NCBI GenBank assembly: GCA_039586495.1
Contig: JBDHKG010000020.1
Location: 1,181-65,180 of the forward strand
DNA from: Gemmatimonadota bacterium
GTDB lineage: Bacteria > Gemmatimonadota > Gemmatimonadetes > Palauibacterales > KS3-K002
Reading direction: 5' to 3'
Length of the DNA stretch: 64,000 bases
Position numbers and translations under genes: made by a program. The notes under the pieces were generated by a model. It was not told the DNA's origin. It saw only the letters and a program-made list of their open reading frames with translations, and ran no database searches. Below, piece after piece: positions 47,920-63,263 of this stretch; position 1 is the stretch's first letter, and each line of letters starts with the position of its first letter.

Positions 47920-48531
47920 CTAGCCACCATACCTGCGGGCGATGATGGCGCCGAAGACGACATTGATCCCGCCAAAACCAGCCGCCATGAACGCGTTGCC
48001 CCATGCCGCTGGGGCGAGAAAAGCCCCGAGGCCCACCAGCATGAAGCAGACCCCCATGATCGGGACGGCTCTCACGGAGAACGCGCCGCCCGTCGTGACG
48101 CCCGTGCCATATAACAACAGCCAGGTGCCCGGCATGGCGTCGAAGAGGCGCGCCGAATAGAGGACCGCCGTGAGCACAGCGCCAGCGACCAGGGGAGGGC
48201 AGAGGCCGAAGACGAAGCGTGCGCCGGCGCCGCGCAGCAGCGGCGCCTTGACGGCTCTGGCTTTGAGAGCCATTGCGACGGCCCCGATGGCGATCGCCAG
48301 GGCAGCCTCGGCGAGCCAGGTGAGGAGCCAGGCGCTGGGGGTCATCTGGCGCGCGGCCAGTGCGGCGGCGGCGAACGCGGTCAGGCCGATGGCCAGGGTG
48401 CCCCACCCGGGGACGGCGGTGAAGGAGCTGGCGCGCGCCATGGTGTCGCGAATGAAGCGGAGGTCATCGAGGGCGCGGGACCGGGTGGGGGAGTGGCCGT
48501 TGCACTGGGGTTGAGAGCGTTCGTTGTTCAT
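47920..48531 (-). CDS. Integral membrane protein (hypothetical), probable partner of the wHTH regulator.
   Basis: 203 aa with five or six TM helices. No recognisable motifs. Confidence 0.5.
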
Positions 48532-48597
48532 GAGGGCTCAAAATAGGGGGTGGGGTTGGTGTTGTCAAGTACTTTGCATTGTAAAGGAGATAGGGGG

Positions 48598-48626
48598 TTG
48601 CGCACTCACGGTCTTCGGTTTATATT
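48598..48626 (+). promoter_or_regulatory. Candidate sigma70-type promoter (TTGCGC-17-TATATT) upstream of dnaE2.
   Basis: -35 TTGCGC at 48598..48603, a 17-nt spacer, then -10 TATATT at 48621..48626, in an AT-richer island. A palindrome AAGTACTT (48567..48574) and the CTTT-N7-AAAG dyad lie just upstream. Confidence 0.35.
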
Positions 48627-48638
48627 CGGTATCCCAGG

Positions 48639-48713
48639 GCGGAGGGGTGACCCACTCCCCCTACCTGCGAAGTGCCCCTCCGCTCTGGACCCACCTTGCG
48701 GTGGGCTTTTTTG
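48639..48713 (+). terminator. Leader or small-RNA-like structure: a 9-bp hairpin plus a canonical intrinsic terminator 39 nt upstream of the dnaE2 ATG.
   Basis: Hairpin 1 is gcggagggg (48639..48647) paired with cccctccgc (48675..48683). The terminator has stem cccacc (48690..48695), loop ttgc and stem ggtggg (48700..48705), then cttttttg (48706..48713). Confidence 0.55.
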
Positions 48714-48751
48714 TCGCCAGGGCTTACGGGCTTTATTCGGGACACTGGTTT

Positions 48752-51700
48752 ATGCCCTCATACGCCGAGCTCCACTGTCACTCCGCCTTCTCCCTCCTCG
48801 ACGGCGCCTCCACGCCGGAAGTCCTGGTTCGACGGGCGGTGGAGCTCGGCATCCGCGCCCTGGCGCTCACCGACCACGACGACCTGGGCGGCGCGGTGCG
48901 CTTCAGCCGGGCGGCCCGGGAGGCGGGATTGGAGGCGATCGTGGGGGCTGAGCTCACGATCGTGCCGCCGGAGGACGCTGCCGGTCCTCCCAACCATCTC
49001 ACGCTGCTGGCGCGGACCGCCGAGGGCTACGCGAACCTCTCGGAGCTGGTGACGCGGGGACGGTCGGGCACGGCGGGAACCCTCGCTTCATGTCGCGCGA
49101 CACGGGTTGGGATGTGTGACGGGCCACCGCGCTCCAAATGTCCGCTCGCGGCTCCCGCCGTGCCCTCCCTGTCGCGGAAAGGAGCCCGCCCCGAATCAAC
49201 TTCGAGAGTCCCCATCACGAACAGCTGGGCGCCGGACAGGGGGCGCCCACGGGTGACCTGGGAGGACCTGGCGGAGCTGGGATCCGGGCTCTTCGCCCTC
49301 ACGGGCTGTCCGCAAGGCGAGCTGGCCCGGCGGGTGCGGGCGGGCGATGGGAAGGGGACGCGGGAGCTGCTCGATTTCCTGCGGAGCGCCTTCCACGGCT
49401 ACTTGGCCGTGGAAGTCTGGGATCATGCGTTGCCGGAGGAACGGGCGCTGGCGGATCGCTTGCTGGAGCTGGCGGACCGCCAGGGGCTGCCGGCGGTGGC
49501 GACCAACGATGTGCACTATGCGCTGCCGTCGGGCCGAATCGTCCACGATCTGCTCACCTGCCTGCGCCATCAGGTGACGCTGGATGAGGCGGGCAGGCGG
49601 CTGCGCCCCAACGGCGAGTGGCATCTGAAGCCGTCCTCGGTGGTGTGGCGGCGCTGGCGCCAGCGGCCCGACGTGGTGGAGAACACCCACGGCGTCGCCG
49701 CCGAGTGTTCTTTCCGCTTGGCGGACCTCTCGCCGGCGATGCCGGGGTTCCAGGTGCCGCCCGGCGTGACGACGCAGGAGTATCTGGAGCGGTTGGTCTG
49801 GCGGGGTGCGCTGGAGCGCTACGGTGGGGCAGGGCAGGTGCGGAACGGCGATCCGATCTGCATTTCCGCTCCTGTGGAGGAGGGAGGAGTCGGGGAGATC
49901 GTCTCGCTCCACCGCTCGCAGCCTCCTGCGCCGCCCCCGGATCTCCAGCGCGGCCGCACGGTTGAGCGCGAGCCGCCGACCACCCCACCGGCCCTTGCAA
50001 AGGAAGTACTGCGGCCTGGCCGAGGCACGTCCAGGCACTTGAGCGAGGCGGGTCAAATCTGGAACAGTGACTCGAGTGGCGTGGTCGTTCCGACTAGGGA
50101 TGGGGCGCCGGATGGGTCGTCGAGCGTAACTCGCGAGCGGTGGAGCGAGATGATCCCACCGGCGCCCCGTCTAAACGGCGGCTCGGGTCTCAGGCAGCGA
50201 GTGCGTCGCCAGATCCGCCACGAACTCGAGGTGATCAAGCGCTTGGACCTGGCCGGGTACTTCCTCACCGTCTGGGACATCGTCCGCTTCGCCCGGCGCC
50301 AAGGGATCCTGTTGCAGGGACGCGGCTCGGCCGCCAACTCCTGCGTCTGCTACTGCCTGGGGATCACGGCGGTGGATCCCATCAAGTTCGAGCTGTTGTT
50401 CGAGCGCTTCCTCTCGGAGGAGCGGGGCGGCGCGCCCGACATCGATCTCGACATCGAGCACGAGCAGCGCGAGGAGGTGCTCCAGTACGTCTACCGCAAG
50501 TACGGCCGCGAGCGGGCGGCGATGGTCTGCGAGACGATCACCTATCGCGGCCGCTCCGCGGTGCGCGATGCCGCCCGCGTGCTCGGCTTTTCCACCGATG
50601 TGGCCGATCGACTGGCGGCGGAAGTGGAGCGCTGCGAAGCGGTAGAGGCGGCCGATGTGCTGGAGAACGGCGGACTGGCCGCCTGCGGGCTCGATCCGCG
50701 GGACCGTCGTGTCGCGGCGCTGGTCCACGTGGTGCGCGGGCTCGACCAACTACCGCGTCACCGCTCCATCCATGTAGGCGGCTTCGTCCTCACCGCGAGC
50801 CCACTCTCCCTGGTCGTCCCCATCGAGCCGGCGGCGATGCCGGAGCGCACCGTCATCCAGTGGGACAAGGACGACCTCGACTTCGTGGGCCTCATCAAGA
50901 TCGATCTGTTGGGCCTGGGGATGCTTACCTGCCTGGCGAAGGCGATCCGCTACATCCGCGAGACGCGCGGTGTGGCCATCGACCTGGCCCAGCTGCCGGC
51001 GGGCGACCCCGAGGTCTACCGGATGATCCAGCAGGCGGACACGGTAGGCGTCTTCCAGATCGAGAGCCGGGCGCAGATGAACTCGCTGCCGCGCTTGAAA
51101 CCCGGGGATTTCTACGATCTGGTCGTCCAGGTGGCGCTCATCCGGCCGGGCCCCATCCAGGGCGAGATGGTGCACCCCTATGTGCGGCGGCGGCGCGGCG
51201 AGGAGCCGGTGACGTATCTGCATCCGGATCTTGAGCCGATCCTCAAGCGGACGCTGGGCGTGCCGCTCTTCCAGGAGCAGGGGATGAAGGTCGCGGTGGC
51301 GATGGCGAACTTCACGCCGGGCCAGGCGGACGCATTGCGCCGGGCGATGGGGTTCAAGCGCTCGAGGGAGGCGATGGCGCTGATCGAGCCGGCGCTACGG
51401 GCGGGGATGACGGCGCGCGGGATCACCACAGACGTGCAGGATCAGATCGTCAAGCAGCTCACCGCCTTCGCCAACTACGGTTTTCCGGAGAGCCATGCGG
51501 CGTCATTCGCGCTCCTGGTCTACGCCTCGGCGTATCTCAAGCGCTACTACGCGCCCGAGTTCTACTGCGCGCTGCTCAACGCGCAACCGATGGGGTTCTA
51601 CGCGCCGGGGACGCTCGTTCATGATGCACGTCGCCACGGGGTCGAGATGCGGCCCGTCGATCTCGCGTACTCGAGCTGGGACTGCACGCTCGAACCCGGC

Positions 51701-52699
51701 ATCGAGGAAGACGGGGTGCGGCAGGGTCGTCTCGCTTCATGTCGCGCGGCACCGTGCCGATGTCGAAGGACCGGCGGGGGCGCTCCAAATGTCCGCTCAA
51801 CGACACCTGCCGCACCCCTGGACTCCGGGGACACGGCAGGAGATCCTCGAGCGGCCTTGTCACCACGAAAGGGAGGGCACGGCACCGACCCACGAGCGGA
51901 CATTTGGAGCGCCCCGGCCCGTCTCGTACACGTGCCCGAGTCGCGCGACATGAAGCGAGGGGTCGGTGCCGTGCCCGACCGGCCGGCTCTGCGGATCGGA
52001 CTGCGCTATGTGCGCGGGCTGGGCTCGAAGGCGGAGGAGAAGCTCAAGGCGGCATGGGAGGCCGGGGGACGTTTCCGGTCGGTGGAGGATGTGGTGCGGC
52101 GGTCGGGCCTCGGCCTCCCCTCCCTCAAGACGCTGGCGGAGGCCGGCGCCTTCCGGACGCTCTGGGGGCCGGGCCGGCGCTCCGCCCTCTGGGAGATGCT
52201 GGCGAAGCTCGCCCAGCGGCCACTGGCGCCGGTGGATTCGGCGCCTCATCCGTACCCGCACCCGAAACTGAAGGAGATGACCCGGGTCGAGTTCATCGCC
52301 GCCGATTACCTGACCACCGGACTCTGCACCCACGGGCATCCCATGGAGCACCTGCGGGCAACACTGCGCGCTCACGGTGTGGTCTCGGCCGAGGAGCTCA
52401 AGCGGGTCCGCAGCGGTCAGCGAGTGAAGGTGGCTGGCGTGGTGATCTGCCGGCAGCGGCCGGGCACCGCCAAAGGCGTGTGCTTCATCACTCTGGAGGA
52501 TGAGACCGGGTTCTCCAACTTCGTGGTCTACGCCGACCTGTTTCAGCGCTACCGCCGCACCATCGTCCGCTCACCGGTGCTCTTGATCGAGGGGATCGCC
52601 CAGCACGAGCAGGACGTGATCAACGTGCAGGCACGGCGGATCACCGCGATCGAGCCGACCGCGGGCGCCGACGTCATCGAGAGCCACGACTTTCACTGA
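48752..52699 (+). CDS. dnaE2: Error-prone DNA polymerase III alpha-subunit homolog (DnaE2/ImuC type), lengthened by three in-frame palindromic-element insertions.
   Basis: Starts MPSYAELHCHSAFSLLDGAS, the PHP domain. The polymerase core includes 'GFVLTASPL...IDLLGLGMLT...GVFQIESRAQM', and the OB-fold tail is 'VKVAGVVICRQRPGTAKGVCFITLEDETG'. The ORF-track start at 48524 is probably too long. Confidence 0.85.
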   Translation: MPSYAELHCHSAFSLLDGASTPEVLVRRAVELGIRALALTDHDDLGGAVRFSRAAREAGLEAIVGAELTIVPPEDAAGPPNHLTLLARTAEGYANLSELVTRGRSGTAGTLASCRATRVGMCDGPPRSKCPLAAPAVPSLSRKGARPESTSRVPITNSWAPDRGRPRVTWEDLAELGSGLFALTGCPQGELARRVRAGDGKGTRELLDFLRSAFHGYLAVEVWDHALPEERALADRLLELADRQGLPAVATNDVHYALPSGRIVHDLLTCLRHQVTLDEAGRRLRPNGEWHLKPSSVVWRRWRQRPDVVENTHGVAAECSFRLADLSPAMPGFQVPPGVTTQEYLERLVWRGALERYGGAGQVRNGDPICISAPVEEGGVGEIVSLHRSQPPAPPPDLQRGRTVEREPPTTPPALAKEVLRPGRGTSRHLSEAGQIWNSDSSGVVVPTRDGAPDGSSSVTRERWSEMIPPAPRLNGGSGLRQRVRRQIRHELEVIKRLDLAGYFLTVWDIVRFARRQGILLQGRGSAANSCVCYCLGITAVDPIKFELLFERFLSEERGGAPDIDLDIEHEQREEVLQYVYRKYGRERAAMVCETITYRGRSAVRDAARVLGFSTDVADRLAAEVERCEAVEAADVLENGGLAACGLDPRDRRVAALVHVVRGLDQLPRHRSIHVGGFVLTASPLSLVVPIEPAAMPERTVIQWDKDDLDFVGLIKIDLLGLGMLTCLAKAIRYIRETRGVAIDLAQLPAGDPEVYRMIQQADTVGVFQIESRAQMNSLPRLKPGDFYDLVVQVALIRPGPIQGEMVHPYVRRRRGEEPVTYLHPDLEPILKRTLGVPLFQEQGMKVAVAMANFTPGQADALRRAMGFKRSREAMALIEPALRAGMTARGITTDVQDQIVKQLTAFANYGFPESHAASFALLVYASAYLKRYYAPEFYCALLNAQPMGFYAPGTLVHDARRHGVEMRPVDLAYSSWDCTLEPGIEEDGVRQGRLASCRAAPCRCRRTGGGAPNVRSTTPAAPLDSGDTAGDPRAALSPRKGGHGTDPRADIWSAPARLVHVPESRDMKRGVGAVPDRPALRIGLRYVRGLGSKAEEKLKAAWEAGGRFRSVEDVVRRSGLGLPSLKTLAEAGAFRTLWGPGRRSALWEMLAKLAQRPLAPVDSAPHPYPHPKLKEMTRVEFIAADYLTTGLCTHGHPMEHLRATLRAHGVVSAEELKRVRSGQRVKVAGVVICRQRPGTAKGVCFITLEDETGFSNFVVYADLFQRYRRTIVRSPVLLIEGIAQHEQDVINVQARRITAIEPTAGADVIESHDFH
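49082..49180 (-). repeat. Truncated copy of palindromic MITE-like element family 1, inverted relative to the 51731 copy, inside dnaE2 and in-frame.
   Basis: The 18-bp terminus ctcgcttcatgtcgcgcg (49082..49099) is identical to 51731..51748. The inner box gcgctccaaatgtccgctc (49129..49147) is identical to the inner repeat of the full copy. ccgtgccctccc (49158..49169) is the reverse complement of gggagggcacgg in the full copy. The second half is missing. Confidence 0.7.
49897..50153 (+). mobile_element. Palindromic MITE-like element family 2 (~257 bp) inside dnaE2, in-frame.
   Basis: The terminal inverted repeats atcgtctcgctccaccgctcgc (49897..49918) and gcgagcggtggagcgagatgat (50132..50153) match at 21 of 22 positions. 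The element encodes a low-complexity ~90-aa Pro/Gly/Ser-rich insert ('...SLHRSQPPAPPPDLQRGRTVEREPPTTPPALAKE...') absent from typical DnaE2. Confidence 0.6.
51731..51959 (+). mobile_element. Full-length palindromic MITE-like element family 1 (229 bp, nested inverted repeats) inside dnaE2, in-frame.
   Basis: The outer TIRs are ctcgcttcatgtcgcgcg (51731..51748) and cgcgcgacatgaagcgag (51942..51959), an 18/18 match. The inner inverted repeats are ggggcgctccaaatgtccgctc (51778..51799) and gagcggacatttggagcgcccc (51894..51915), a 22/22 match. The central part has a further cctgccg...cggcagg dyad. The element encodes '...LASCRAAPCRCRRTGGGAPNVRSTTPAAPLDSGDTAGDPRAALSPRKGGHGTDPRADIWSAPARLVHVPESRDMKRG...' between the conserved DnaE2 segments 'SSWDCTLEPG' and 'PALRIGLRYVRGLG'. 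Confidence 0.75.
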
Positions 52700-55201: not shown

Positions 55202-56464
55202 ATGGGTATCCGAGAGCGCTACGCGCGTGAAGCGTTGATCTTCCTGCTTTGGTGCATCGCGCCATCCGTGGGATACGCCCAGGCCCAGGAAGGTACGTGT
55301 GTGAGCTGTCATTCCGGGCTGAGCGGTAACCTGGCCGAGCCTGTAGAGGAGTATGCGGCAAGCGTGCACGCAGCCAGGGGCTTCGGGTGCGTCTCTTGCC
55401 ACGGCGGCGACGCTCAGGAATTCAGTATGGCGGCGATGGACCCGAGCAGGGGGTATGTCGGCGTCCCGGAGCGCCAGCAGATTCCGACCCTGTGTGGCCG
55501 CTGCCACTCCGACGCGCAGTTCATGAGGCAGTACAATCCAGCGCTGCGTGTGGACCAGGTGGCCGAATACCTCACTTCGGTGCACGGCCAGCAGTTGATG
55601 CGGTCGAATGATGAGAGGGTCGCGACCTGCGTGAGCTGTCACCCTGCGCACGCGATCAAGCCGCCCTCGGACCCGACCTCCAGCGTCAACACGCTGAACG
55701 TGGCTCAGCTGTGCGGATCGTGCCACAGCGACCCGGACTACATGCAGCCGTACATGATCCCGACGGACCAGGAAGAGAGGTATCGGCAGAGCATCCACTG
55801 GCAGATGCTTTCTGTGGAGGGCGATCTCTCGGCGCCGACCTGCAATGACTGTCACGGCAACCACGGCGCGGCCCCGCCCGGGATCTCCTGGGTAGGTAAC
55901 GTCTGCGGTCAATGCCACACGGTGATGTCGGGTCTGTTCCAGGAGAGCCAGCACGCGCGTGTGCTCGCGATGCTGGGCTCTCCAGGCTGCGCCACCTGCC
56001 ACAGGAACCACGACATCCACGAGGCCGGGGACGAGTTGCTCGGTCTAGGGGAAGGTGCTGCCTGCGGGATGTGCCACGCGGAAGTGGATGCGGGCGGCGC
56101 CGTCGCGTCCGAGATGCGAAGCCTGATCGATTCGCTGCACAGGGAATTCGCGAAGGCCGACTCGGTTCTCGCGCGGGCCGAGCACGCGGGGATGGAGGTC
56201 AGCGAGGCTCAATTCGATCTTAACGCTGCCACGACCGCCTTGATCAGCGCGAGGGCGGCGGTGCACGGGTTCTCTGTTGACGCGGTGCGGCAAGAGGTCG
56301 CGGCCGGACTGGAGGTGACATCGCGGGCCTACGAGCGTGGCCAGAAGGCACTCGCCGATCTCCAATTCCGGCGCGTGGGTCTGGCGGTCTCGGTAACTAT
56401 CATTCTGCTGCTGATCGTCGGGCTCGTGCTCAAGATTCGACAGATCGAGCGAAAGACAGCGTAG
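55202..56464 (+). CDS. Nonaheme c-type cytochrome with a C-terminal membrane anchor; first gene of the bc-type complex operon.
   Basis: Nine CxxCH motifs (CVSCH, CVSCH, CGRCH, CVSCH, CGSCH, CNDCH, CGQCH, CATCH, CGMCH). C-terminal TM helix 'VGLAVSVTIILLLIVGLVL'. Confidence 0.85.
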   Translation: MGIRERYAREALIFLLWCIAPSVGYAQAQEGTCVSCHSGLSGNLAEPVEEYAASVHAARGFGCVSCHGGDAQEFSMAAMDPSRGYVGVPERQQIPTLCGRCHSDAQFMRQYNPALRVDQVAEYLTSVHGQQLMRSNDERVATCVSCHPAHAIKPPSDPTSSVNTLNVAQLCGSCHSDPDYMQPYMIPTDQEERYRQSIHWQMLSVEGDLSAPTCNDCHGNHGAAPPGISWVGNVCGQCHTVMSGLFQESQHARVLAMLGSPGCATCHRNHDIHEAGDELLGLGEGAACGMCHAEVDAGGAVASEMRSLIDSLHREFAKADSVLARAEHAGMEVSEAQFDLNAATTALISARAAVHGFSVDAVRQEVAAGLEVTSRAYERGQKALADLQFRRVGLAVSVTIILLLIVGLVLKIRQIERKTA

Positions 56465-56502
56465 CTGGTTTGGTGCGGGGCCAGCTTCCAGGGAGGAACG
56501 CG

Positions 56503-56958
56503 ATGGCTGAAAAGGTGGGAGCTGCCGGCCAGAGCCGGCGAGGCTTCGTCAACTGGATTCTAGGTACGGGCGTGGGAGGACTGCTGCTCGCCGTCCTCTA
56601 TCCGCTCAGCCGTTACCTGATTCCACCGGAGGTGGAGGAATCGACGGCCGGGACGGTCACGCTCGCGATCAAGCCGGAGGAGATTGCCGCGAACACCGGT
56701 CACATCTTCAAGTTCGGAAGCCAACCGGGGATTCTGATCCGGACACCGTCAGGTGAGCTGCGCGCGTTCTCGGCGACGTGCACACACCTGGCCTGCATCG
56801 TCCAGTACCGGAGTGATCTCGGGCGCATCTGGTGCGCCTGCCATAACGGACATTTCGACCTCAGCGGCCGGAACATCGAGGGGCCACCCCCGCGGCCGCT
56901 TGAGAGCTTTGCGGTGAACGTACGTGGGGAGCAGATCGTGGTGAGCAGGGACGTCTGA
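56503..56958 (+). CDS. Rieske [2Fe-2S] subunit of the cytochrome bc-type complex, with a Tat signal.
   Basis: Twin-arginine '[11 protein letters not shown]'. Box I 'CTHLAC' and box II 'CACH' are present. GGGAGG lies 6 nt upstream of the ATG at 56503. Confidence 0.85.
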
Positions 56959-56960
56959 CG

Positions 56961-58058
56961 ATGGGAACCCTCAAGCAGAAGTTCAGCGGTCTCTGGGGCT
57001 GGCTCGACGAGCGATTGGGGCTCGCCGATGTCGAGACGCTCGCCAAGAAAAAGGAGGTGCCGATCCACCGGCACACGGTCTGGTACTACCTGGGCGGGAT
57101 GACGCTCTTCCTCTTCCTGATACAGGTCGCCACTGGGATCTTGCTTCTCTTCTACTATCGCCCGAGCGCCGAGCACGCTTACGAGTCGGTGCAGTTCCTG
57201 ATGGCGGAGGTCGAGTTCGGTTGGCTGGTTCGCTCGATTCATTCGTGGGCGGCTAATCTGATGATCTTCACGGCCTTCCTGCACCTTTTCAGCGTCCTGC
57301 TCCTGAAAGCGTACCGCAGGCCCCGCGAGGTCACCTGGCTGTCTGGCGTGCTCTTGCTGGGGCTTGCCATGGGCTTCGGCTTCACCGGGTACCTGCTGCC
57401 CTGGAACGAGCTGGCGTACTTCGCGACGAGGGTCGGCACCCAGATCGTCGACGCGGTTCCGCTTGTCGGCCGGTTCGCCGGCCGAGTGCTCCGCGGCGGC
57501 GACGATGTCACGGGCGCGACCCTCACGCGCTTCTACGCCATCCACGTGGCTGTCCTGCCAATGGTGACGACTTTCCTGCTGGTCCTGCATCTGTTCATGG
57601 TCCAGAAACACGGGATGAGCGTGCCTCCGGATATGGAGCGCCAGGGCGGTGCGAAGGGCGCCATGCCGTTCTTCCCCCACTTCCTGCTCCGCGATCTGGT
57701 GGGCTGGCTTTCGGCGCTGGCGATCCTCGCTGCGCTAGCCGCCTATTTCCCGGCGGAGCTCGGCGAGAAGGCGGACCCCTTCGCGTCCGCGCCGGCAGGC
57801 ATCAAGCCGGAGTGGTACTTCATGTTCATGTTCCAGACGCTGAAGTACCTGCCGGCTCATATCCTCTGGATGGAGGGGGAGGCTGTCGGCATTGTCGCTT
57901 TCATGCTGGCCGGTCTGCTGCTGCTCATCATCCCCTTCCTGGACCGTCGCTCGGCGCGTGGCGAGCCGAGCCGGCTGTTCACGTGGATCGGCATCGTAAT
58001 TATCGTCTACATCATCATCCTGACCTATCTCGGCTACACGGCGAATCCTGCGGCCTAG
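56961..58058 (+). CDS. Cytochrome b subunit (fused b6 and subunit-IV type).
   Basis: Heme-ligating His in helices B and D ('[19 protein letters not shown]', '[23 protein letters not shown]'), a PEWY-region analog, and 8 TM helices. Confidence 0.88.
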
Positions 58059-58126
58059 CAGCGGTGAGGACTCGAAGCCGCCGGCCCGCTTGTCTGCTGT
58101 TGTACCAGGCAGCGCGACAGGGTCGG

Positions 58127-60112
58127 CTATCCCCCGCTCAGCGCAGGGATCTCGTGGCAGAGGACACAGTCCGCCGGAGCGTTGTGCTCGACCTTGTCGA
58201 CGTGACACACGGTACAGACCTGCCGGCTCCACTCAGTGATGTTGGCGACGCGCTCTCCGTGGCAGGGGGCGCAGCCACTGTGTGCGGCAGGCGGATGGAT
58301 CTGCATGACTCCGCCGCGGTGGCATGATAGGCAGGAGTTGTCTGGCTGGTGATGGCGATCGTGGCAACTCTCACAGCGTACGCCGCTGGCGCTCATCGCG
58401 GGCGCCTCATGGCACTGCGAGCAGCCCAAGCCCGCCTCGAGGTGCGTCTGGTGTGGGAAATCGCCGGTCTCGGTCGCCATCGCTGTCTGAGGGGCGCCGC
58501 CCGGGCCCGCGTGACACGCGGCACAGTTGAGCGGGTCGATCACGCGATGATGGCAGTTGTCGCAGCTTGATCTTCCGCGCAGGGTGATCCCGCCGTGCTC
58601 TTCCAAAGGCGTGTGGCACTCGGAACAGCCCAGTGCGGCTCGCTGAACGTGGGGGCCGTGGCTGAACGCTTGGCCCGCAAAGGCGCCCTCTTGCCCACCG
58701 ATACCGAGGTGGCACTGCAGGCAGGTGTTCTCGGCTAGCGCTGGCCCGAGGTCTAGGTCAGGGACGGAGTAGGTCAGTCGGCCGACCTCGACGGCCTGCC
58801 TGGCGAGTCCAAGGGAGGCGCGCAGCAGGTCGTCGGCGTAGCCGATGTTGTGGGCGCCCTTCCCGCGTTCCACGAGACCCACGTTCTCCTCGGCGAGCCT
58901 GAGAAGGCTATCGGCTCTGGCCCGGGTGCGCAGCGGCGCGCTGCCCAGTGTCTGCCGGGCCGCCCTGATGACGGAAGCGACCTCGCTCCGGCGTCGCTCG
59001 ATCTCCCTTTGCCAGTTGGGGAGAATGTTCGCGTAGCGGATGCCGTGGCAGGACATGCAGGTCGCTTCGCCAGCGCGCCGGACCTCCTCGTGGCCGGGAA
59101 CCTCCGCTGGCAGGCCGTGGCAGCTCTGGCAGAGCACGCGGGCCAGATACATGGAGCTGGGCCTGTTATCGGTGCCGTGCCCGCCCATGCCCGCATACAT
59201 GAGCCTCTGCTCGTTGTGGGCGCGCTGATGGCATGCCTGACAGTCGAGCTCGAACGTGGCGGCGAGGGACAGCACCCGATGCTGCATGGGCGTGTGGCAC
59301 TGCGTGCACTCGACCTTGTTCTCGGAGATGTGGAGTCGGTGAACGAGCGTGGTGTTCTCGAACTGACCCAGCCGTTCGGGCTCGTTATGGCAAATGAAGC
59401 AGCGATCCCGGTCCGCGGCACCCGAGCCGCTGATCACGTTCTCGTGGCACCCGGTACAGGAGATGAGGTTCCTCACGTACTCTCGGTGGTCGACCACGAA
59501 GCCTGCGGGCGAGGTGAAGCGTGGCGGTGAGGCGTGGCAGCCGGTGCAACCCGCGATGGGTTGACCCGCGGGCCGATCCTTGAAGTGACACAGGTAGCAG
59601 GTCTCTGCCGTGACCGTCACATGGGCGCCCTGCACGATCTGGGAGTGGCAGCTCGTGCAGCGCAGATTCTTGCCGCGCCGGAGCTCGCCCAGGTGGTGGG
59701 TGTGATCGAAGCGGACGCCCTCAAAATTCACCTCCCCTTCAAGCGCCCGCTCCGAGTGACAACCCGAGCGCAGACAGGCTGCATCCTCGATCTCCGCCCA
59801 CGGTCTGATCCCGTAGGTGCCGGTGATGTACTTGACGACCTGGTTGGCTGCCTGGAGCTTCCCCATCGCCTCCGCCCTGATCCCGGGCGCGTAGTGACAG
59901 TCGATGCATTTCACGCTGTTGTGAGACGAGCTTGCCCAGGAATCGTAATAGGGCCGCATGATGTGGCAGTTGGTGCAGAAGCTGGGCTGACCGCTGTACT
60001 CGATGAACCCTACTGTCCCGATCGCAGCCAGTATCACCAGCAGGATGCCCACCTGGATGGCGATCTTCAGAGGGTCGGAAAAGCGGTCCAGAAAACCCAT
60101 GAGAGGCGCCAT
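58127..60112 (-). CDS. Large multiheme c-type cytochrome (~21 CxxCH plus one CX4CH) with a NapC/NirT-like N-terminal TM anchor; last gene of the minus-strand bc-type operon.
   Basis: 661 aa. N-terminal TM 'IAIQVGILLVILAAIGTVGF' then 'CTNCH...CIDCH'. CxxCH motifs recur throughout, and 'CLRSGCH' is a CX4CH variant. Confidence 0.85.
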   Translation of the reverse strand: MAPLMGFLDRFSDPLKIAIQVGILLVILAAIGTVGFIEYSGQPSFCTNCHIMRPYYDSWASSSHNSVKCIDCHYAPGIRAEAMGKLQAANQVVKYITGTYGIRPWAEIEDAACLRSGCHSERALEGEVNFEGVRFDHTHHLGELRRGKNLRCTSCHSQIVQGAHVTVTAETCYLCHFKDRPAGQPIAGCTGCHASPPRFTSPAGFVVDHREYVRNLISCTGCHENVISGSGAADRDRCFICHNEPERLGQFENTTLVHRLHISENKVECTQCHTPMQHRVLSLAATFELDCQACHQRAHNEQRLMYAGMGGHGTDNRPSSMYLARVLCQSCHGLPAEVPGHEEVRRAGEATCMSCHGIRYANILPNWQREIERRRSEVASVIRAARQTLGSAPLRTRARADSLLRLAEENVGLVERGKGAHNIGYADDLLRASLGLARQAVEVGRLTYSVPDLDLGPALAENTCLQCHLGIGGQEGAFAGQAFSHGPHVQRAALGCSECHTPLEEHGGITLRGRSSCDNCHHRVIDPLNCAACHAGPGGAPQTAMATETGDFPHQTHLEAGLGCSQCHEAPAMSASGVRCESCHDRHHQPDNSCLSCHRGGVMQIHPPAAHSGCAPCHGERVANITEWSRQVCTVCHVDKVEHNAPADCVLCHEIPALSGG

Positions 60113-60118
60113 CCTCTG

Positions 60119-61381
60119 TCAGCTTTCTCCTTTCAACAGTACCCGCAGTTTGAACCAGGAGAGGATGATGGCGGAAAGCGCCAGGAACCAGATGAGAATG
60201 AGGATAAGCCTGTGTTCCCAGCGCTGCTCGGCGCTCACCTCCGCGGCTGCCCGCACATCCCGCGAGATCGAGGCCACCTGCCGACTCAGATCCTCGAGCG
60301 TTTCGAGTCCTAGGCTGTGTTGAGTCTGAGCCATCTGCATGTACGAGGTCAGCGCACTCTGGTAGCGAAACTCTACGTCCGAGACCTGCTGGCCGGCACG
60401 GGTGAGTTCTAGGATCGCCTCTTCGGCACTTCGCAGATCCTCGCTGGCACGTGTCACCTGTTCTTGGATCTCTACCCCGGCAAGAGCGGCGGGTTCTTCG
60501 GTGTCGTGGCAGTTCAGGCAGGTGGCCGCGACCCTTTCAGGATGCACTCGTTCGGTGCCGTGGTTGGAGTGGCAGGCGGTGCAGCCGGGCAGGACCCCGG
60601 CGCGGGCCGCGGCACCATGCGGTCCCGCGTCGAACGCGCGGCGAACCAGGACGTGGCATTGACCGCACACGTTCCCGATTTGGCTGACTGCCGGTGGTAG
60701 CGCCGCATGGGAACCGTGGCAGCCTACGCAGGTCGGTGCCGCGAAATTCTCTTTCTCGTAGAGCGCTACACCGTGGGTGCTTGCCCGGTGCGTCGTGACC
60801 TGGTCCGTGGTCAGGCCATACTTCGCCATCAACGCCGCCTGCTCGTGGCAGCGTGCGCAGGTGGCTGCGATGTTGGTGGGGTAGACGTTGCTGCGTGCGT
60901 CGTTGGGCGGCAGGATCATGTGCGCGTCGTGGCAGTCGGTGCAGGTAGGCGCATCGAAGTCCCGTTGCTCCAGCAATAGCCTGCCGTGCCGACTGGTGCG
61001 GTACTCGGCGAGCTGGCCCGCCGGCAAGCCGTACTGGCGCATCCGATCGGGGTCGGAGTGGCACGACGCGCACAGCTGCACCGTACGAATCTTGTCGGGC
61101 GACCCGATGTAGTTTGCGCCGGTGTGGGCGGTGGCGCGCTCGAACGCCCTCGGGTCCCCACCGTGGCAGTCGTGACAGCGGATGCCACGCTCGGAGTGCG
61201 CGCCGAGCAGGAACGCTCTCCGCTTGTCGGTGTGGCAGACAACACAGCTGTACTCAGGGTCGATGTCGAATTCGCGCTGCTGAGAAGGCACCGGCGAAGC
61301 CGTCGCTGTCTCAGCGTCGACGGACGCCGCCGCCAGAGCCAGCAGGGTGCTGGAAGTCAGTATCCACGGGCCCGCTCTCAC
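60119..61381 (-). CDS. Nonaheme c-type cytochrome, paralog of 55202..56464, with a C-terminal TM anchor.
   Basis: Nine CxxCH motifs. Segments collinear with the plus-strand paralog include 'CASCHSDPDRMRQYGL' ~ 'CGRCHSDAQFMRQYNP' and 'IGNVCGQCH' ~ 'VGNVCGQCH'. Confidence 0.85.
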   Translation of the reverse strand: MRAGPWILTSSTLLALAAASVDAETATASPVPSQQREFDIDPEYSCVVCHTDKRRAFLLGAHSERGIRCHDCHGGDPRAFERATAHTGANYIGSPDKIRTVQLCASCHSDPDRMRQYGLPAGQLAEYRTSRHGRLLLEQRDFDAPTCTDCHDAHMILPPNDARSNVYPTNIAATCARCHEQAALMAKYGLTTDQVTTHRASTHGVALYEKENFAAPTCVGCHGSHAALPPAVSQIGNVCGQCHVLVRRAFDAGPHGAAARAGVLPGCTACHSNHGTERVHPERVAATCLNCHDTEEPAALAGVEIQEQVTRASEDLRSAEEAILELTRAGQQVSDVEFRYQSALTSYMQMAQTQHSLGLETLEDLSRQVASISRDVRAAAEVSAEQRWEHRLILILIWFLALSAIILSWFKLRVLLKGES

Positions 61382-62640
61382 TGCTGGTCCTCCCTGTCGC
61401 CAGGGTTCTGGGAGCGTGAGTCACGCTCCGGTGTCTCTGCTTCGAGTTCTCGCGGAACGAACCGCTCGACCACGCCTTCAGATCGTAGGTGCGTGCCGGG
61501 CGGCAGCGACTCGAGCTGACGACCGGCCACCCAAGCGACGAGGAAGCCGGCGAAGAACACCAACCCGAGCGCCAGCGCGAGGGGCCTCTTACGCAGCCGC
61601 CGCTCAGGTCGGCGATCGAACAGGGGAAGCAACGCCAGGCTGATCCCCAACAATGTGAAGAGCGAGAAGCCCCACACACCGAGGTAGCGTATCAGAGCCA
61701 ACGCGACGTCCACGACGATCCATGAGGAAACGAGTTCCTCCGGGAGCTGGAACGGGTCGGCGGGGTCCCCCACCGCTCGCGGGTAGAGGGCTGCCAGGCT
61801 GAACGTTACGGCCAGGACCAGGATCCCGACGATGAACGAGCGCAAGAGATGATTCGGGAAAAACCGCGTCCCTTCGCCGGCGCTCGCTGTCGCTTCGGGA
61901 GGCGGGGCGATCCCGTGCCTTCGCACCAAATTGAAGTGGAACAGGAGCAGCGCGAAGGCTACCCAGGGAAGCAGGATCACGTGGAGGGCGAAGAAGCGGC
62001 TTAGGGTCGCGCCCGACACGATCACGTCGCCCTGCAGAACCGAAGCTGCGAGACTGAGCAGCGGCGCGCGCGACATGGTGCCCAGCACCTCCGTGACCGT
62101 CCAGTAAGCCCACTGATCCCAGGCCAGCAAGTAGCCGGTGGTACCGAAAGCCAGTACAACCAGCAGCAGGAGCACGCCTACCACCCAGTTCGTCTCGCGC
62201 GGCGGCTTGTAGGTCGCGTGAAAGAAGACGCGGGCCATATGGGCCAGTATCGCGAGCACGATGAGGTTTGCCGACCAGACGTGGAGGTTGCGGACCAGCC
62301 AGCCCATCGGAACCTCGGTAACGATGTACTGGATACTCGGGTAGGCTTCTTGCACCGAAGGCCGGTAGTAGAAGGACAGCAGCACACCGGTAACCACCAG
62401 GACGATGAAAAGCAGGTACGTGATGCCGCCGAGCGCATGGCGCCAGCCGACGTGACCCGCTAAGCGGTAGCCGAGCGCTTTGCGCAGTGCCTGATCGATT
62501 GGCAGGCTTCGGTCGATGCGGCCGTACAGCAGCCCCAGGAACCGCGCTACCCCGAGCAGCCCGGGATCGGTACTGGCCTTGAGGTCGGCCCAGAACTGGG
62601 CCAACCATCTGGCTCTTGGCTTCCGTTCTGAATCGTTCAC
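61378..62640 (-). CDS. Cytochrome b subunit, paralog of 56961..58058.
   Basis: '...SIQYIVTEVPMGWLVRNLHVWSANLIVLAILAHMARVFF...' is collinear with the plus-strand cytochrome b. 4-nt overlaps with both neighbouring genes. Confidence 0.85.
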   Translation of the reverse strand: MNDSERKPRARWLAQFWADLKASTDPGLLGVARFLGLLYGRIDRSLPIDQALRKALGYRLAGHVGWRHALGGITYLLFIVLVVTGVLLSFYYRPSVQEAYPSIQYIVTEVPMGWLVRNLHVWSANLIVLAILAHMARVFFHATYKPPRETNWVVGVLLLLVVLAFGTTGYLLAWDQWAYWTVTEVLGTMSRAPLLSLAASVLQGDVIVSGATLSRFFALHVILLPWVAFALLLFHFNLVRRHGIAPPPEATASAGEGTRFFPNHLLRSFIVGILVLAVTFSLAALYPRAVGDPADPFQLPEELVSSWIVVDVALALIRYLGVWGFSLFTLLGISLALLPLFDRRPERRLRKRPLALALGLVFFAGFLVAWVAGRQLESLPPGTHLRSEGVVERFVPRELEAETPERDSRSQNPGDREDQQ

Positions 62641-63098
62641 CTTTCTCCTTCCGAAACGTAGACGACACCGTCCCTGACAGACACGGAGTAGCGTCGAAGC
62701 GCCTGCATGGACAGGCCTGCAACTACATCTCCTCGCAGGTCATAGACCGTGTACCGGCACGGCGAATAGACTCGCGAGGACTCGGGGTCCCAGCGCAGGA
62801 TGCAGCCGTCGAACGGCGAGACCCCCTGCAGCGCGAAGTAGCGGAGAGAATCGGGCCGGATGACAAGAATGGTCTTCTCACCCCAGTTCCGCACCCGGCT
62901 GGACCCGACAGGGAAATCGGCCTCCCGGGCCACGCGAATCACCGGCTGAAGCTCAGGGATCTCGAGATGCTCGGAGGGGGCGACATAGAACGTGGTCGCT
63001 ATCGCCAGCAGCACGATCATCACGAGGATGACGCCGCCCAGGAGAAGTTCGGTGAAGCCGAATCGCGAAGTCCTCAGCTGTTTCTCCATTGCTTGCAT
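62637..63098 (-). CDS. Rieske-fold paralog lacking all four Fe-S ligands (pseudo-Rieske) but keeping the disulfide Cys pair. It has a degenerate Tat motif.
   Basis: Aligns with 56503..56958: 'SRFGFTELLLG' ~ '[11 protein letters not shown]' (RR to RF). Box I 'CTHLAC' becomes 'SPFDGC' and box II 'CACH' becomes 'SPCR'. Confidence 0.55.
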   Translation of the reverse strand: MQAMEKQLRTSRFGFTELLLGGVILVMIVLLAIATTFYVAPSEHLEIPELQPVIRVAREADFPVGSSRVRNWGEKTILVIRPDSLRYFALQGVSPFDGCILRWDPESSRVYSPCRYTVYDLRGDVVAGLSMQALRRYSVSVRDGVVYVSEGER

Positions 63099-63263
63099 AC
63101 GGTTGACGCGAAGCCGCGCAAACGGGTTCTCCGCAGGATCACCCGCAGCATCGGGAAGCGAGCTGAAACTACCACGCTTCCCCGAAATTGCGCCACCGGT
63201 TGAGGCGGCAAGCCGGTGAGCGTCAAGTCGCTTATCGTTCTGCCGACTTGCCCGGAGTCAGAC

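What the first reader, a model, noticed from the sequence alone, without database searches (positions are those of the whole stretch)
62637..63098. Rieske paralog that has lost all four [2Fe-2S] ligands but keeps the disulfide cysteines, with a degenerate Tat motif
Aligned with the canonical Rieske at 56503..56958, box I CTHLAC becomes SPFDGC and box II CACH becomes SPCR. That is Cys to Ser, His to Phe, Cys to Ser and His to Arg at the ligand positions. Both cysteines that form the stabilising disulfide are conserved. The twin-arginine SRRGFV becomes SRFGFT.

This looks like a cluster-less pseudo-Rieske retained as a structural subunit of the second complex. It still heads a tightly coupled operon, with a 4-nt overlap onto cytochrome b'.
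Basis: seen in the sequence. Interest (0 to 1): 0.65.

Follow-up and report, generated by a model that had tools for sequence, protein, structure and literature searches.

The report
Cluster-free Rieske subunit, Gemmatimonadota bc-type complex
A Gemmatimonadota bacterium carries a second respiratory cytochrome b complex whose Rieske subunit keeps its fold, membrane anchor and two bridging cysteines but can no longer bind an iron-sulfur cluster, which shows that this kind of quinol-oxidising complex can persist without the cofactor that defines it.

Summary
ORF 62637..63098 (-) is an intact 153-aa (perhaps 150-aa) protein with an N-terminal membrane helix and a periplasmic Rieske fold. All four [2Fe-2S] ligands are replaced (S94, F96, S112, R115). 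Both disulfide cysteines (C99, C114) are kept and the twin-arginine is RF. This does not depend on alignment, because the soluble domain has two Cys and no His.

It is not decay. More than 120 homologue clusters, every named one from Gemmatimonadota and down to 35% identity, share SPxDGC...SPC. They sit in the same four-gene operon: pseudo-Rieske, cytochrome b', nonahaem c, and a 22-haem NrfH/NapC-like cytochrome. dN/dS is 0.08-0.25, like the neighbouring genes.

The closest ligand-bearing Rieskes (Acidobacteriota and unnamed) head the same four-gene module, so the cluster was lost inside a pre-existing module. It is not a recent copy of the adjacent canonical Rieske.

Cytochrome b' keeps its four haem histidines, but PEWY is S-x-W-x.

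Best reading: a redox-inert structural or docking subunit of a non-bifurcating quinol:multihaem cytochrome oxidoreductase. I found no description in the searchable literature. It is a new variant of a known kind.

The parts
62637..63098 (-). Pseudo-Rieske: 153 aa (or 150 aa from M4 at 63089), N-in/C-out membrane-anchored Rieske-fold protein with no [2Fe-2S] ligands
63054..63068 (-). Degenerate Tat motif S11-R-F-G-F15 (the canonical paralogue has S-R-R-G-F)
   Evidence: RR is at this position in only 6 of 87 family members.
62982..63056 (-). Transmembrane anchor helix, residues 15-39
62802..62819 (-). Former cluster-binding loop 1, S94-P-F-D-G-C99 (canonical C-T-H-L-G/A-C). P95, D97 and G98 are at least 90% conserved and C99 is invariant.
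62754..62765 (-). Former cluster-binding loop 2, S112-P-C114-R115 (canonical C-P/A-C-H). S112 is at least 90% conserved. P113 and C114 are invariant.
61378..62640 (-). Cytochrome b': 420 aa, 7 TM, a fused b6 + subunit-IV type. The four haem-b histidines are conserved. There is no CxGG cysteine for haem ci. PEWY is replaced by S-S-W-I. The GTG start overlaps the pseudo-Rieske stop (GTGA).
60119..61381 (-). Nonahaem cytochrome c' with a signal peptide and a C-terminal membrane anchor (cytochrome c1-like topology). It overlaps b' by 4 nt.
58127..60112 (-). Cytochrome c with 22 haem motifs (21 CxxCH and 1 Cx4CH), an N-terminal membrane anchor and an NrfH/NapC/NirT-type N-terminal domain. It is the last gene of the operon.
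55202..58058 (+). Comparator, not part of the complex: the canonical operon with nonahaem c (55202-56464), Rieske with CTHLAC/CACH and SRRGF (56470-56958), and cytochrome b with PEWY (56961-58058). It converges on the pseudo-Rieske operon.

Best explanation
The gene encodes a redox-inert Rieske-fold subunit of a second cytochrome b complex found in Gemmatimonadota.

Shown:
- The protein has a membrane anchor and a periplasmic Rieske beta-fold.
- It cannot bind a [2Fe-2S] cluster, because the soluble domain has two Cys and no His.
- Its two remaining cysteines are the pair that forms the loop-bridging disulfide in bc-type Rieske proteins.
- It evolves under purifying selection as strong as that on its haem-bearing neighbours.
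- It is always first in a translationally coupled four-gene operon: pseudo-Rieske, cytochrome b', nonahaem c', and a 22-haem NrfH-like cytochrome.
- The same module exists with an intact, Tat-targeted Rieske in Acidobacteriota and other bacteria.

Inferred:
- In the Gemmatimonadota lineage the [2Fe-2S] relay was abandoned. With it went the need for Tat export of a folded cofactor protein.
- The polypeptide was kept because its helix and head are needed to assemble or shape the P-side of the complex. Possible roles are holding the dimer together, capping or gating the remodelled Qo pocket, and docking the nonahaem cytochrome.
- The conserved SPxDGC/SPC loops, locked by the disulfide, and the conserved proline-rich linker would form a fixed interface rather than a mobile electron shuttle.
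- Without a high-potential one-electron acceptor at Qo, the complex cannot run a bifurcated Q cycle.
- It most likely works as a simple (mena)quinol:multihaem cytochrome c oxidoreductase, or the reverse reaction. The two b haems and/or the NrfH-like quinol-dehydrogenase domain would connect the quinone pool to a long periplasmic haem wire. Functionally this resembles the Rieske-less bc-type enzymes CbcL and CbcBA of Geobacter.
For: Ligand loss:
- Pairwise alignment.
- Profile alignment to PDB 8hn2_A, E=4e-15.
- Cys/His counts in the soluble domain.
- 0 of 113 homologues have the C-H-C-H ligand set.

Fold and topology:
- Model pLDDT 89.4 and best Foldseek hit 8hn2_A.
- TM helix and positively charged N-terminus.

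Selection:
- dN/dS is 0.08-0.25 for the pseudo-Rieske and 0.07-0.27 for b' and the NrfH-like cytochrome. The nonahaem c' ranges from 0.09 to 0.37.
- C99, P113 and C114 are invariant. P95, D97, G98 and S112 are at least 90% conserved.
- Linker residues Y38, P41, L45 and P48 are at least 91% conserved.

Operon:
- The same four genes occur in the same order in L001-L003, L005-L007 and L011, including a member only 35% identical. L004 holds the first three genes, and its nonahaem match stops at residue 233.
- The 4-nt overlap is conserved.

Origin:
- On the family HMM, the ligand-bearing P0127 scores 96 bits and the window's own Rieske scores 43.8 bits.
- P0127, P0402 and P0405 head Rieske-b-nonahaem-18-haem NNT modules.
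- Identity to those modules is 30-33% for the Rieske, 35-38% for the nonahaem c and 38-42% for the NNT cytochrome. Identity to the canonical operon is 22% for the Rieske and 33% for the nonahaem c, and that operon has no NNT counterpart.

Cytochrome b':
- The haem histidines and FGxTGYLLPWDQ are conserved, and PEWY is replaced by S-x-W-x in 120 orthologues.

Tat:
- RR is kept at the motif position in only 6 of 87 members.

Precedents:
- Rieske-less bc-type quinone oxidoreductases: bioRxiv 10.1101/2021.04.15.440034.
- A cluster-free, membrane-anchored Rieske-like domain acting as an assembly factor (PSB33/TEF5): PMC12164590.
Against: - There is no direct evidence that the four proteins form one complex, that the two cysteines are oxidised, or that the operon is expressed.
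- In mitochondrial and bacterial bc1 the b-c1 subcomplex assembles without the Rieske protein (established knowledge). A purely structural need is therefore not self-evident.
- The strong conservation of the former cluster loops, including an acidic residue (D97) where canonical proteins have the hydrophobic tip Leu, could mean a new chemical role rather than scaffolding.
- The Qo-side cd1 motif of b' (PWDQWAYW) is still conserved, so some form of Qo-site quinol chemistry may persist.
- Loss of the PEWY Glu is not specific to the cluster-less lineage. Ligand-bearing relatives have AVWY or PPWY.
- The direction of electron flow and the physiological partner are unknown.
Confidence: 0.6

Rival explanations
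1. The domain gained a new redox or ligand-binding function. One option is that the C99/C114 pair is a redox-active dithiol/disulfide, positioned where the Rieske tip meets the Qo quinone, and exchanges electrons with quinone as DsbB or VKOR do. The other option is that D97, S94, S112 and the cysteines bind a different metal. In either case the subunit would still be catalytic.
For: - The former cluster loops are the most conserved part of the protein. C99, P113 and C114 are invariant and D97 is 97% conserved.
- The Qo-side cd1 motif of b' is conserved.
- In one genome the operon lies near DsrC and DsrE sulfur-relay genes.
Against: - The two cysteines are exactly those that form a structural disulfide in all bc-type Rieske proteins. 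They are also kept in 138 of 140 aligned Rieske representatives, so their retention needs no new function.
- The former His positions are hypervariable: A/V/F/S/T/G/P at one and R/S/T/G/K/A/N at the other.
- S94 is replaced by A or G in several members.
- No additional conserved Cys, His or Met exists.
- DsrC and DsrE are cytoplasmic, whereas this domain is periplasmic.
Confidence: 0.12
2. The complex is primarily a transmembrane electron conduit that uses only the Qi site and the two b haems. It would either send electrons from N-side menaquinol outward to the haem wire, dissipating pmf to reach low-potential acceptors, or carry electrons inward from periplasmic or extracellular donors to quinone. 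The pseudo-Rieske would permanently plug a disused Qo site.
For: - All four b-haem histidines and the N-side motif after helix D (R..HG.APP) are conserved in 120 orthologues, while PEWY is lost.
- D97 replaces the hydrophobic tip Leu.
- The NrfH-like subunit already supplies a P-side quinol dehydrogenase.
Against: - The cd1 Qo motif FGxTGYLLPWDQWaYW is retained nearly as in b6.
- Nothing shows that a c haem can come within tunnelling distance of haem bL.
- This rival differs from the best explanation only in which quinone site is used, and it cannot be separated from it in silico.
Confidence: 0.2
3. A decaying pseudogene or non-functional relic that merely has not yet been deleted.
For: - All cofactor ligands and the Tat motif are lost.
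- It is the fastest-diverged of the three subunits relative to the canonical operon: 22% identity against 38% and 33%.
Against: - The ORF is intact and of conserved length in more than 120 clusters, down to 35% identity.
- dN/dS is 0.08-0.25, equal to the neighbours.
- There are 11 invariant and 29 near-invariant positions.
- Translational coupling is conserved.
Confidence: 0.02
4. A NirD-like small subunit of assimilatory nitrite reductase, as several databases annotate it.
For: - It passes Pfam PF13806 Rieske_2, the NirD-type family.
- Source names include 'nitrite reductase small subunit'.
- Many NirD proteins also lack cluster ligands (my own knowledge).
Against: - TIGR02378 NirD scores 16.2 bits against a cutoff of 74.65.
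- The protein has an N-terminal TM anchor and a periplasmic orientation.
- The best sequence and fold matches are b6f- and menaquinol-type Rieske subunits.
- It is always followed by cytochrome b and never lies next to NirB.
Confidence: 0.01

Closest known systems
Rieske iron-sulfur subunit of b6f-type / menaquinol:cytochrome c oxidoreductases (e.g. Chlorobaculum tepidum ISP, PDB 8hn2; PetC)
   Same: - N-terminal membrane helix followed by a periplasmic Rieske beta-fold.
- Both loop-bridging cysteines are present.
- The gene lies immediately upstream of cytochrome b.
- It is the best sequence and fold match.
   Different: - All four cluster ligands are absent.
- The tip Leu is replaced by a conserved Asp.
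- The twin-arginine motif is lost.
- It scores below every curated cutoff for PetC models: 33 bits against 154, and 29 against 250.
Uncharacterised four-gene module Rieske / cytochrome b / nonahaem c / 18-haem NapC-NirT-type cytochrome of Acidobacteriota and unnamed bacteria (loci L008, L009, L010)
   Same: - Same gene order and the same four protein types.
- These are the closest relatives of three of the four subunits: 30-33%, 35-38% and 38-42% identity.
- In L010 the module also sits next to a second, canonical-type Rieske/cytochrome b operon, as in the window.
   Different: - Their Rieske has CTHLRC...CPCH and an RR Tat motif.
- Their cytochrome b keeps W-Y at the PEWY position (AVWY or PPWY).
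- Their last cytochrome has 18 rather than 22 haem motifs.
Geobacter sulfurreducens ExtMNOPQ(S) cluster (GSU2930-2937): Rieske ExtO, cytochrome b ExtP, ExtQ and multihaem cytochromes
   Same: - A Rieske/cytochrome b6-like core combined with 10- and 12-haem cytochromes instead of a monohaem c1 or f (PMC2825233; PMC5877670).
- NCBIfam's best model for b' is ExtP.
   Different: - ExtO is a normal Fe-S Rieske.
- The cytochrome b is split into ExtP and ExtQ.
- b' scores 209.5 bits against the ExtP cutoff of 290, so it is not an equivalog.
Geobacter CbcL and CbcBA (Rieske-less bc-type inner-membrane quinone oxidoreductases)
   Same: This is what the complex probably works like. A dihaem b membrane protein is paired with a periplasmic multihaem c that carries a C-terminal anchor. 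It links menaquinol to periplasmic haem chains without bifurcation.
   Different: - Their b subunits belong to unrelated dihaem families (HydC/FdnI-like, Ni_hydr_CYTB), not to the cytochrome b/b6 family.
- They have no Rieske-fold subunit at all.
Cluster-free Rieske-like domains: NirD, and PSB33/TEF5 of chloroplasts
   Same: - A Rieske fold retained without cofactor ligands.
- PSB33/TEF5 is also membrane-anchored and acts as a structural or assembly partner of a membrane complex (PMC12164590).
   Different: - Neither is part of a cytochrome b complex.
- NirD is soluble and cytoplasmic.
- PSB33 is anchored at its C-terminus and faces the stroma.
- Neither keeps the bc-type disulfide pair as its only cysteines.

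Membership tests
Rieske [2Fe-2S] subunit of cytochrome bc1/b6f complexes | Rieske beta-sandwich fold | tested here: met
   AF2 pLDDT 89.4. Foldseek best hit 8hn2_A, E=3e-8, TMt 0.79.
Rieske [2Fe-2S] subunit of cytochrome bc1/b6f complexes | Cluster ligands C-x-H ... C-x-x-H | tested here: not met
   The four positions are S94, F96, S112 and R115. The soluble domain has 2 Cys and 0 His.
Rieske [2Fe-2S] subunit of cytochrome bc1/b6f complexes | Second cysteine of each box (loop-bridging disulfide of bc-type Rieskes) | tested here: met
   C99 and C114 are invariant in 87 of 87 members. Whether they are oxidised cannot be tested here.
Rieske [2Fe-2S] subunit of cytochrome bc1/b6f complexes | N-terminal membrane anchor with twin-arginine (Tat) motif | tested here: not met
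   The anchor is present. The motif is S-R-F-G-F, and RR is at the motif position in only 6 of 87 members.
Rieske [2Fe-2S] subunit of cytochrome bc1/b6f complexes | Encoded next to, and co-translated with, cytochrome b | tested here: met
   A 4-nt GTGA overlap, conserved in L004-L007 and L011.
Rieske [2Fe-2S] subunit of cytochrome bc1/b6f complexes | Curated family score (Pfam PF00355; NCBIfam PetC models) | tested here: not met
   No PF00355 hit; only PF13806 at 29.4 bits against a cutoff of 27. PetC models score 33 against 154 and 29 against 250.
Rieske/cytochrome b complex (Q-cycle enzyme) as a whole | Cytochrome b with four bis-His haem ligands | tested here: met
   H..13..H in helix B and H..14..H in helix D, conserved in 120 orthologues.
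Rieske/cytochrome b complex (Q-cycle enzyme) as a whole | Qo-site P-E/D/V/P-W-Y motif | tested here: not met
   S-S-W-I in the window, S-x-W-x in the family and V-L-W-F in L011.
Rieske/cytochrome b complex (Q-cycle enzyme) as a whole | Bifurcated quinol oxidation with the [2Fe-2S] cluster as first acceptor | not testable with these tools
   It is predicted to be impossible without the cluster, but this needs enzymology.
NirD (nitrite reductase small subunit) | Soluble cytoplasmic protein above the TIGR02378 cutoff, encoded with NirB | tested here: not met
   16.2 bits against 74.65. The protein has a TM anchor, and its neighbours are cytochromes.
Geobacter ExtP-type cytochrome b (NF040969) | Score above the equivalog cutoff | tested here: not met
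   209.5 bits against a cutoff of 290.
CbcL/CbcBA-type bc quinone oxidoreductases | HydC/FdnI- or Ni_hydr_CYTB-type dihaem b subunit | tested here: not met
   b' is PF00033/PF13631 cytochrome b/b6. Its PF01292 hit is weak, 21.8 bits against a cutoff of 30.1. The resemblance is functional only.

The most novel reading that the evidence does not exclude
Gemmatimonadota carry a natural 'Rieske-dead' descendant of a Rieske/cytochrome b complex that still turns over quinone. The conserved, disulfide-locked SPxDGC/SPC tip would have a new active role at the Qo site. It could act as a gate or proton relay that lets both electrons of quinol pass to haem, to bL or to a docked c haem. Alternatively it could act as a redox-active disulfide. 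Either way this would be a previously unrecognised, non-bifurcating mode of operation of the cytochrome b/b6 scaffold.
Probability: 0.2. Interest if true: 0.8.

Novelty: new variant of a known kind. Interest (0 to 1): 0.62.

Why it matters
Rieske/cytochrome b complexes are defined by the [2Fe-2S] cluster, which takes the first electron in the bifurcated Q cycle. This family has lost the cluster across a whole lineage yet kept the subunit and its cysteine pair under long-term purifying selection. That makes it a natural experiment with three uses.

- It separates the structural role of the Rieske polypeptide from its redox role.
- It shows that the cytochrome b/b6 scaffold can be re-used for non-bifurcating electron transfer to long multihaem wires. 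This is relevant to anaerobic and extracellular respiration in Gemmatimonadota, an abundant phylum in soils and sediments that is poorly characterised.
- Ligand-bearing and ligand-less versions of the same four-gene module can be compared directly.

There is also a practical point. Public annotations of these proteins ('Rieske (2Fe-2S) protein', 'ubiquinol-cytochrome c reductase iron-sulfur subunit', 'nitrite reductase small subunit') are wrong. Metabolic reconstructions that count them as complex III will over-predict Q-cycle capacity.

Tried and rejected
- **Recent duplicate of the adjacent canonical Rieske: rejected.** On the family HMM the window's Rieske scores 43.8 bits, while ligand-bearing Rieskes from other phyla score 78-96 bits. 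Three of the four subunits are closer to the L008-L010 module.
- **Loss of the PEWY glutamate as a specific correlate of cluster loss: rejected as stated.** Ligand-bearing module relatives already have AVWY or PPWY. Only the additional loss of the Tyr, and of the Pro kept in PPWY, is specific to b'.
- **Alternative alignment that could restore ligands: rejected.** The Cys and His counts rule it out.
- **Pseudogene: rejected**.
- **NirD: rejected**.
- **Locus search with the alignment.** The search for related loci with the 87-sequence alignment failed because no block was conserved enough. The single-protein scan of GTDB genomes found only 4 close loci, all Gemmatimonadota MAGs.
- **Promoter and terminator scan of 57900-63500: uninformative.** It found 0 promoter-like sites and 1 terminator-like site, which is below the shuffled expectation.
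- **Literature.** Six full-text searches found no paper describing a ligand-less Rieske in a cytochrome b operon. The Rieske/cytochrome b phylogeny papers I read do not mention one either (PMC3509893; PMC5600118). Only open-access text is searchable, so prior description elsewhere cannot be excluded.
Full report
**1. The observation**

- The minus-strand ORF 62637..63098 is open and encodes 153 aa. Most orthologues begin at the equivalent of Met4 (MEKQ/MEIE...), so the real start may be 63089, giving 150 aa.
- BLASTP against the window's canonical Rieske (56470..56958 +) gives E=1e-7 and 22% identity over 139 residues. It aligns SPFDGC with CTHLAC and SPCR with CACH.
- A profile of 87 family members hits the solved Chlorobaculum tepidum Rieske domain 8hn2_A at E=4e-15 with the same register. 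S94, x96, S112 and x115 lie opposite Cys, His, Cys and His. C99 and C114 lie opposite the two disulfide cysteines.
- The conclusion does not depend on any alignment. The soluble domain contains only two Cys and no His. Of 112 full-length homologues, 110 have exactly two Cys and 48 have no His at all.
- AlphaFold2 with the family alignment gives mean pLDDT 89.4, a TM helix at 15-39, a poorly defined linker and a beta-domain. The best PDB match of the beta-domain is 8hn2_A (Foldseek E=3e-8, TM 0.79 on the target, rmsd 2.0 Å). It is followed by an anammox bc Rieske, arsenite oxidase small subunits and Rieske ferredoxins.
- Pfam places the protein just above threshold in PF13806 (Rieske_2) and not in PF00355.
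- The Tat motif SRRGF of the canonical protein is SRFGF here.
- The stop codon overlaps the GTG start of cytochrome b' (GTGA). The same overlap joins b' to the next gene.

**2. It is a selected gene family, not decay**

- A search of 5.8 billion proteins returned 113 clusters at 49-94% identity. Every named one is from Gemmatimonadota.
- None of them has the ligand set. Box I is S/A-P-x-D-G-C and box II is S-P-C-x. The former His positions are hypervariable.
- A profile search of 1.84 billion representatives shows that the ligand-less proteins occupy the top ~14 clusters at 50% identity. Normal C-H-C-H Rieskes follow.
- Cluster look-ups again name only Gemmatimonadota. The same look-ups show that the proteins are annotated as 'Rieske (2Fe-2S) protein', 'nitrite reductase small subunit' or 'ubiquinol-cytochrome c reductase iron-sulfur subunit'.
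- In the 87-sequence alignment C99, P113 and C114 are invariant. P95, D97, G98 and S112 are at least 90% conserved. The former cluster loops are therefore among the most constrained parts of the protein.
- The linker is also constrained: Y38, P41, L45 and P48 are at least 91% conserved.
- Nei-Gojobori dN/dS between the window and seven orthologous loci is 0.08-0.25 for the pseudo-Rieske. That matches b' and the NrfH-like cytochrome (0.07-0.27), and the nonahaem c' ranges from 0.09 to 0.37. dS is saturated in most pairs. The 97%-identical pair gives 0.15 at dS 0.10.
- Only 6 of 87 members retain RR at the Tat position. This fits relaxed selection on Tat export once no cofactor has to be inserted in the cytoplasm.

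**3. The operon**

- Downstream on the minus strand lie three genes:
  - cytochrome b' (61378..62640, 420 aa, 7 TM);
  - a nonahaem cytochrome c with a signal peptide and a C-terminal anchor (60119..61381);
  - a cytochrome with 22 haem motifs, an N-terminal anchor and an NrfH/NapC/NirT-type first domain (58127..60112).
- The same four genes occur in the same order in L001-L003, L005-L007 and L011. L011 carries a pseudo-Rieske only 35% identical to the query that is still ligand-less (VSAGDGC...SPCS). L004 holds the first three genes, and its nonahaem match stops at residue 233.
- A canonical operon lies convergently at 55202..58058. It has a nonahaem c, a Rieske with CTHLAC/CACH and SRRGF, and a cytochrome b with PEWY. 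In L006 the canonical operon also lies next to the pseudo-Rieske operon, there in tandem.
- The window's wider neighbourhood is housekeeping: DnaE, a MacB-type exporter and penicillin amidase.

**4. Origin**

- The three shared subunits of the two window operons are paralogous: 22% (Rieske), 38% (cytochrome b) and 33% (nonahaem c).
- The pseudo-Rieske is not a recent copy of its neighbour. On the family HMM the canonical Rieske scores 43.8 bits, while ligand-bearing Rieskes from elsewhere (P0127, P0132, P0137) score 78-96 bits.
- P0127, P0402 and P0405 (the last named Acidobacteriota) each head a four-gene module: Rieske, cytochrome b, nonahaem c and an 18-haem Cytochrom_NNT protein.
- The window proteins are 30-33% (Rieske), 35-38% (nonahaem) and 38-42% (NNT cytochrome) identical to these module proteins.
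- Those Rieskes have CTHLRC...CPCH and an RR motif.
- The module therefore predates the loss. Gemmatimonadota lost the cluster, and then mostly the Tat motif, inside an otherwise conserved machine.

**5. Cytochrome b'**

- It is a b6-like protein. The best PDB hits are cytochrome b6 at E~1e-51, and the C-terminal part matches subunit IV.
- In 120 orthologues the four haem histidines are conserved, with spacing of 13 in helix B and 14 in helix D. The helix C/cd1 motif FGxTGYLLPWDQWaYW and the N-side motif R..HG.APP are also conserved.
- There is no CxGG cysteine, so no haem ci.
- The PEWY motif of the canonical b aligns with S-S-W-I. The family consensus is v-S-x-W-x-v-V-D-V, and L011 has V-L-W-F.
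- The ligand-bearing relatives have AVWY or PPWY. Loss of the Glu is therefore older than loss of the cluster. The additional loss of the Tyr, and of the Pro kept in PPWY, is specific to b'.

**6. Mechanism**

Shown:
- a periplasmic, anchored Rieske fold without any possible [2Fe-2S] site;
- retention of the disulfide pair;
- strong purifying selection;
- obligatory genetic linkage to b' and two multihaem cytochromes;
- descent from a ligand-bearing module.

Inferred:
- The subunit is redox-inert. It is kept because its helix and head are needed for assembly or for shaping the P-side interface: dimer clamp, Qo cap or gate, or docking site for the nonahaem cytochrome.
- Without the high-potential one-electron acceptor, bifurcated Qo chemistry is not possible.
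- The complex probably acts as a plain (mena)quinol:multihaem cytochrome oxidoreductase, or the reverse. Functionally this resembles Geobacter CbcL and CbcBA, which pair a dihaem b with an anchored multihaem c and have no Rieske.
- Which quinone site is used, and the direction of electron flow, cannot be decided in silico. The candidates are a remodelled Qo, Qi through the b haems, or the NrfH-like domain.

Open point: conservation of the former cluster loops and the Leu-to-Asp change at the tip leave room for a new active role (a redox-active disulfide or a proton relay). I rate that at roughly 0.1-0.2.

**7. Comparison with what is known**

- Cluster-free Rieske-like domains are known. NirD is one (my own knowledge). 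PSB33/TEF5 of chloroplasts is another (PMC12164590).
- Rieske/cytochrome b cores combined with multihaem cytochromes are also known, for example Geobacter ExtMNOPQ (PMC2825233; PMC5877670).
- I did not find a description of a cytochrome b operon whose own Rieske subunit has lost the cluster. This covers six full-text searches and the two phylogenomic surveys I read (PMC3509893; PMC5600118). The searchable library holds open-access papers only, so this is absence of evidence, not proof.
- The membership tests show that the protein is a Rieske-fold homologue of bc-type ISPs. It fails the defining cofactor, Tat and curated-score criteria, and it fails all NirD criteria.

**8. Verdict**

- Novelty: a new variant of a known kind.
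- Interest: 0.62. A bioenergeticist would find a conserved cluster-free Rieske subunit surprising. Ligand-bearing and ligand-less versions of one module make the question experimentally tractable. The function, however, remains inferred.

Noticed in passing
Not in the window; proteins P0130, P0148, P0157, P0168, P0215, P0400 (representative search): A group of ~216-238-aa Rieske proteins with a long N-terminal extension has the first His ligand replaced by Met (CTMEDC...CPCH). One member is named Planctomycetota. Other representatives replace the same His with S, F, L, I, T, Y or D. These may be three-ligand or Met-ligated Rieske variants.
   Followed up: no
Protein P0133: A 147-aa anchored Rieske has CPRTGC...CPCD. 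Both Cys ligands are kept and both His ligands are replaced (by R and D). Its N-terminus has one Arg. It may be an intermediate state on the way to cluster loss. Its taxon and genomic context are unknown.
   Followed up: no
window 55202..58058 (+) and L006 14312..16442, L010 2985..7987: The canonical Rieske/cytochrome b operon uses a nonahaem, C-terminally anchored cytochrome c in place of c1 or f. It sits directly beside the second module in the window (convergent), in L006 (tandem) and in the Acidobacteriota locus L010 (tandem). Paired bc-type modules therefore recur as an arrangement.
   Followed up: partly
L002 5858..9252, L003 5139..8533, L011 2612..7666: Large fusion proteins (635 to over 900 aa) that combine multihaem c domains with a Ni_hydr_CYTB-type dihaem b domain lie next to the pseudo-Rieske operon in several Gemmatimonadota loci. 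Their architecture resembles CbcL. L011 also has DsrC, DsrE and an NrfD / 4Fe-4S / multihaem module nearby.
   Followed up: no
L001 8479..9700: In this 1-Mb ENA contig the cytochrome b' gene is called as two ORFs (183 and 219 aa). The same neighbourhood in a Logan assembly has one 406-aa gene. This is probably an assembly frameshift rather than a genuine b6/subunit-IV split.
   Followed up: no
window 63089..63098: The listed ATG at 63098 gives MQAMEKQ..., but most orthologues are 150 aa and start MEKQ/MEIE. Met4 (63089) is therefore the more likely start codon. No clear Shine-Dalgarno sequence precedes either ATG.
   Followed up: partly
window 48524..52699 (+): The DnaE ORF is 1391 aa long. 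The PHP domain hit stops at residue 179 (profile positions 1-95 of 164) and the next polymerase domain starts only at residue 553. This suggests a large insertion (an intein or an extra domain), or a start codon that has been extended too far upstream.
   Followed up: no
L001 499..3609: The V/A-type ATPase catalytic subunit next to a multihaem cytochrome gene is 1036 aa, much longer than usual. It may contain an intein.
   Followed up: no
Public annotations of P0002, P0009, P0014, P0382, P0388, P0389: Members of the ligand-less family are deposited as 'Rieske (2Fe-2S) protein', 'nitrite reductase (NAD(P)H) small subunit' or 'ubiquinol-cytochrome c reductase iron-sulfur subunit'. None of these names can be correct for a protein without cluster ligands.
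   Followed up: yes
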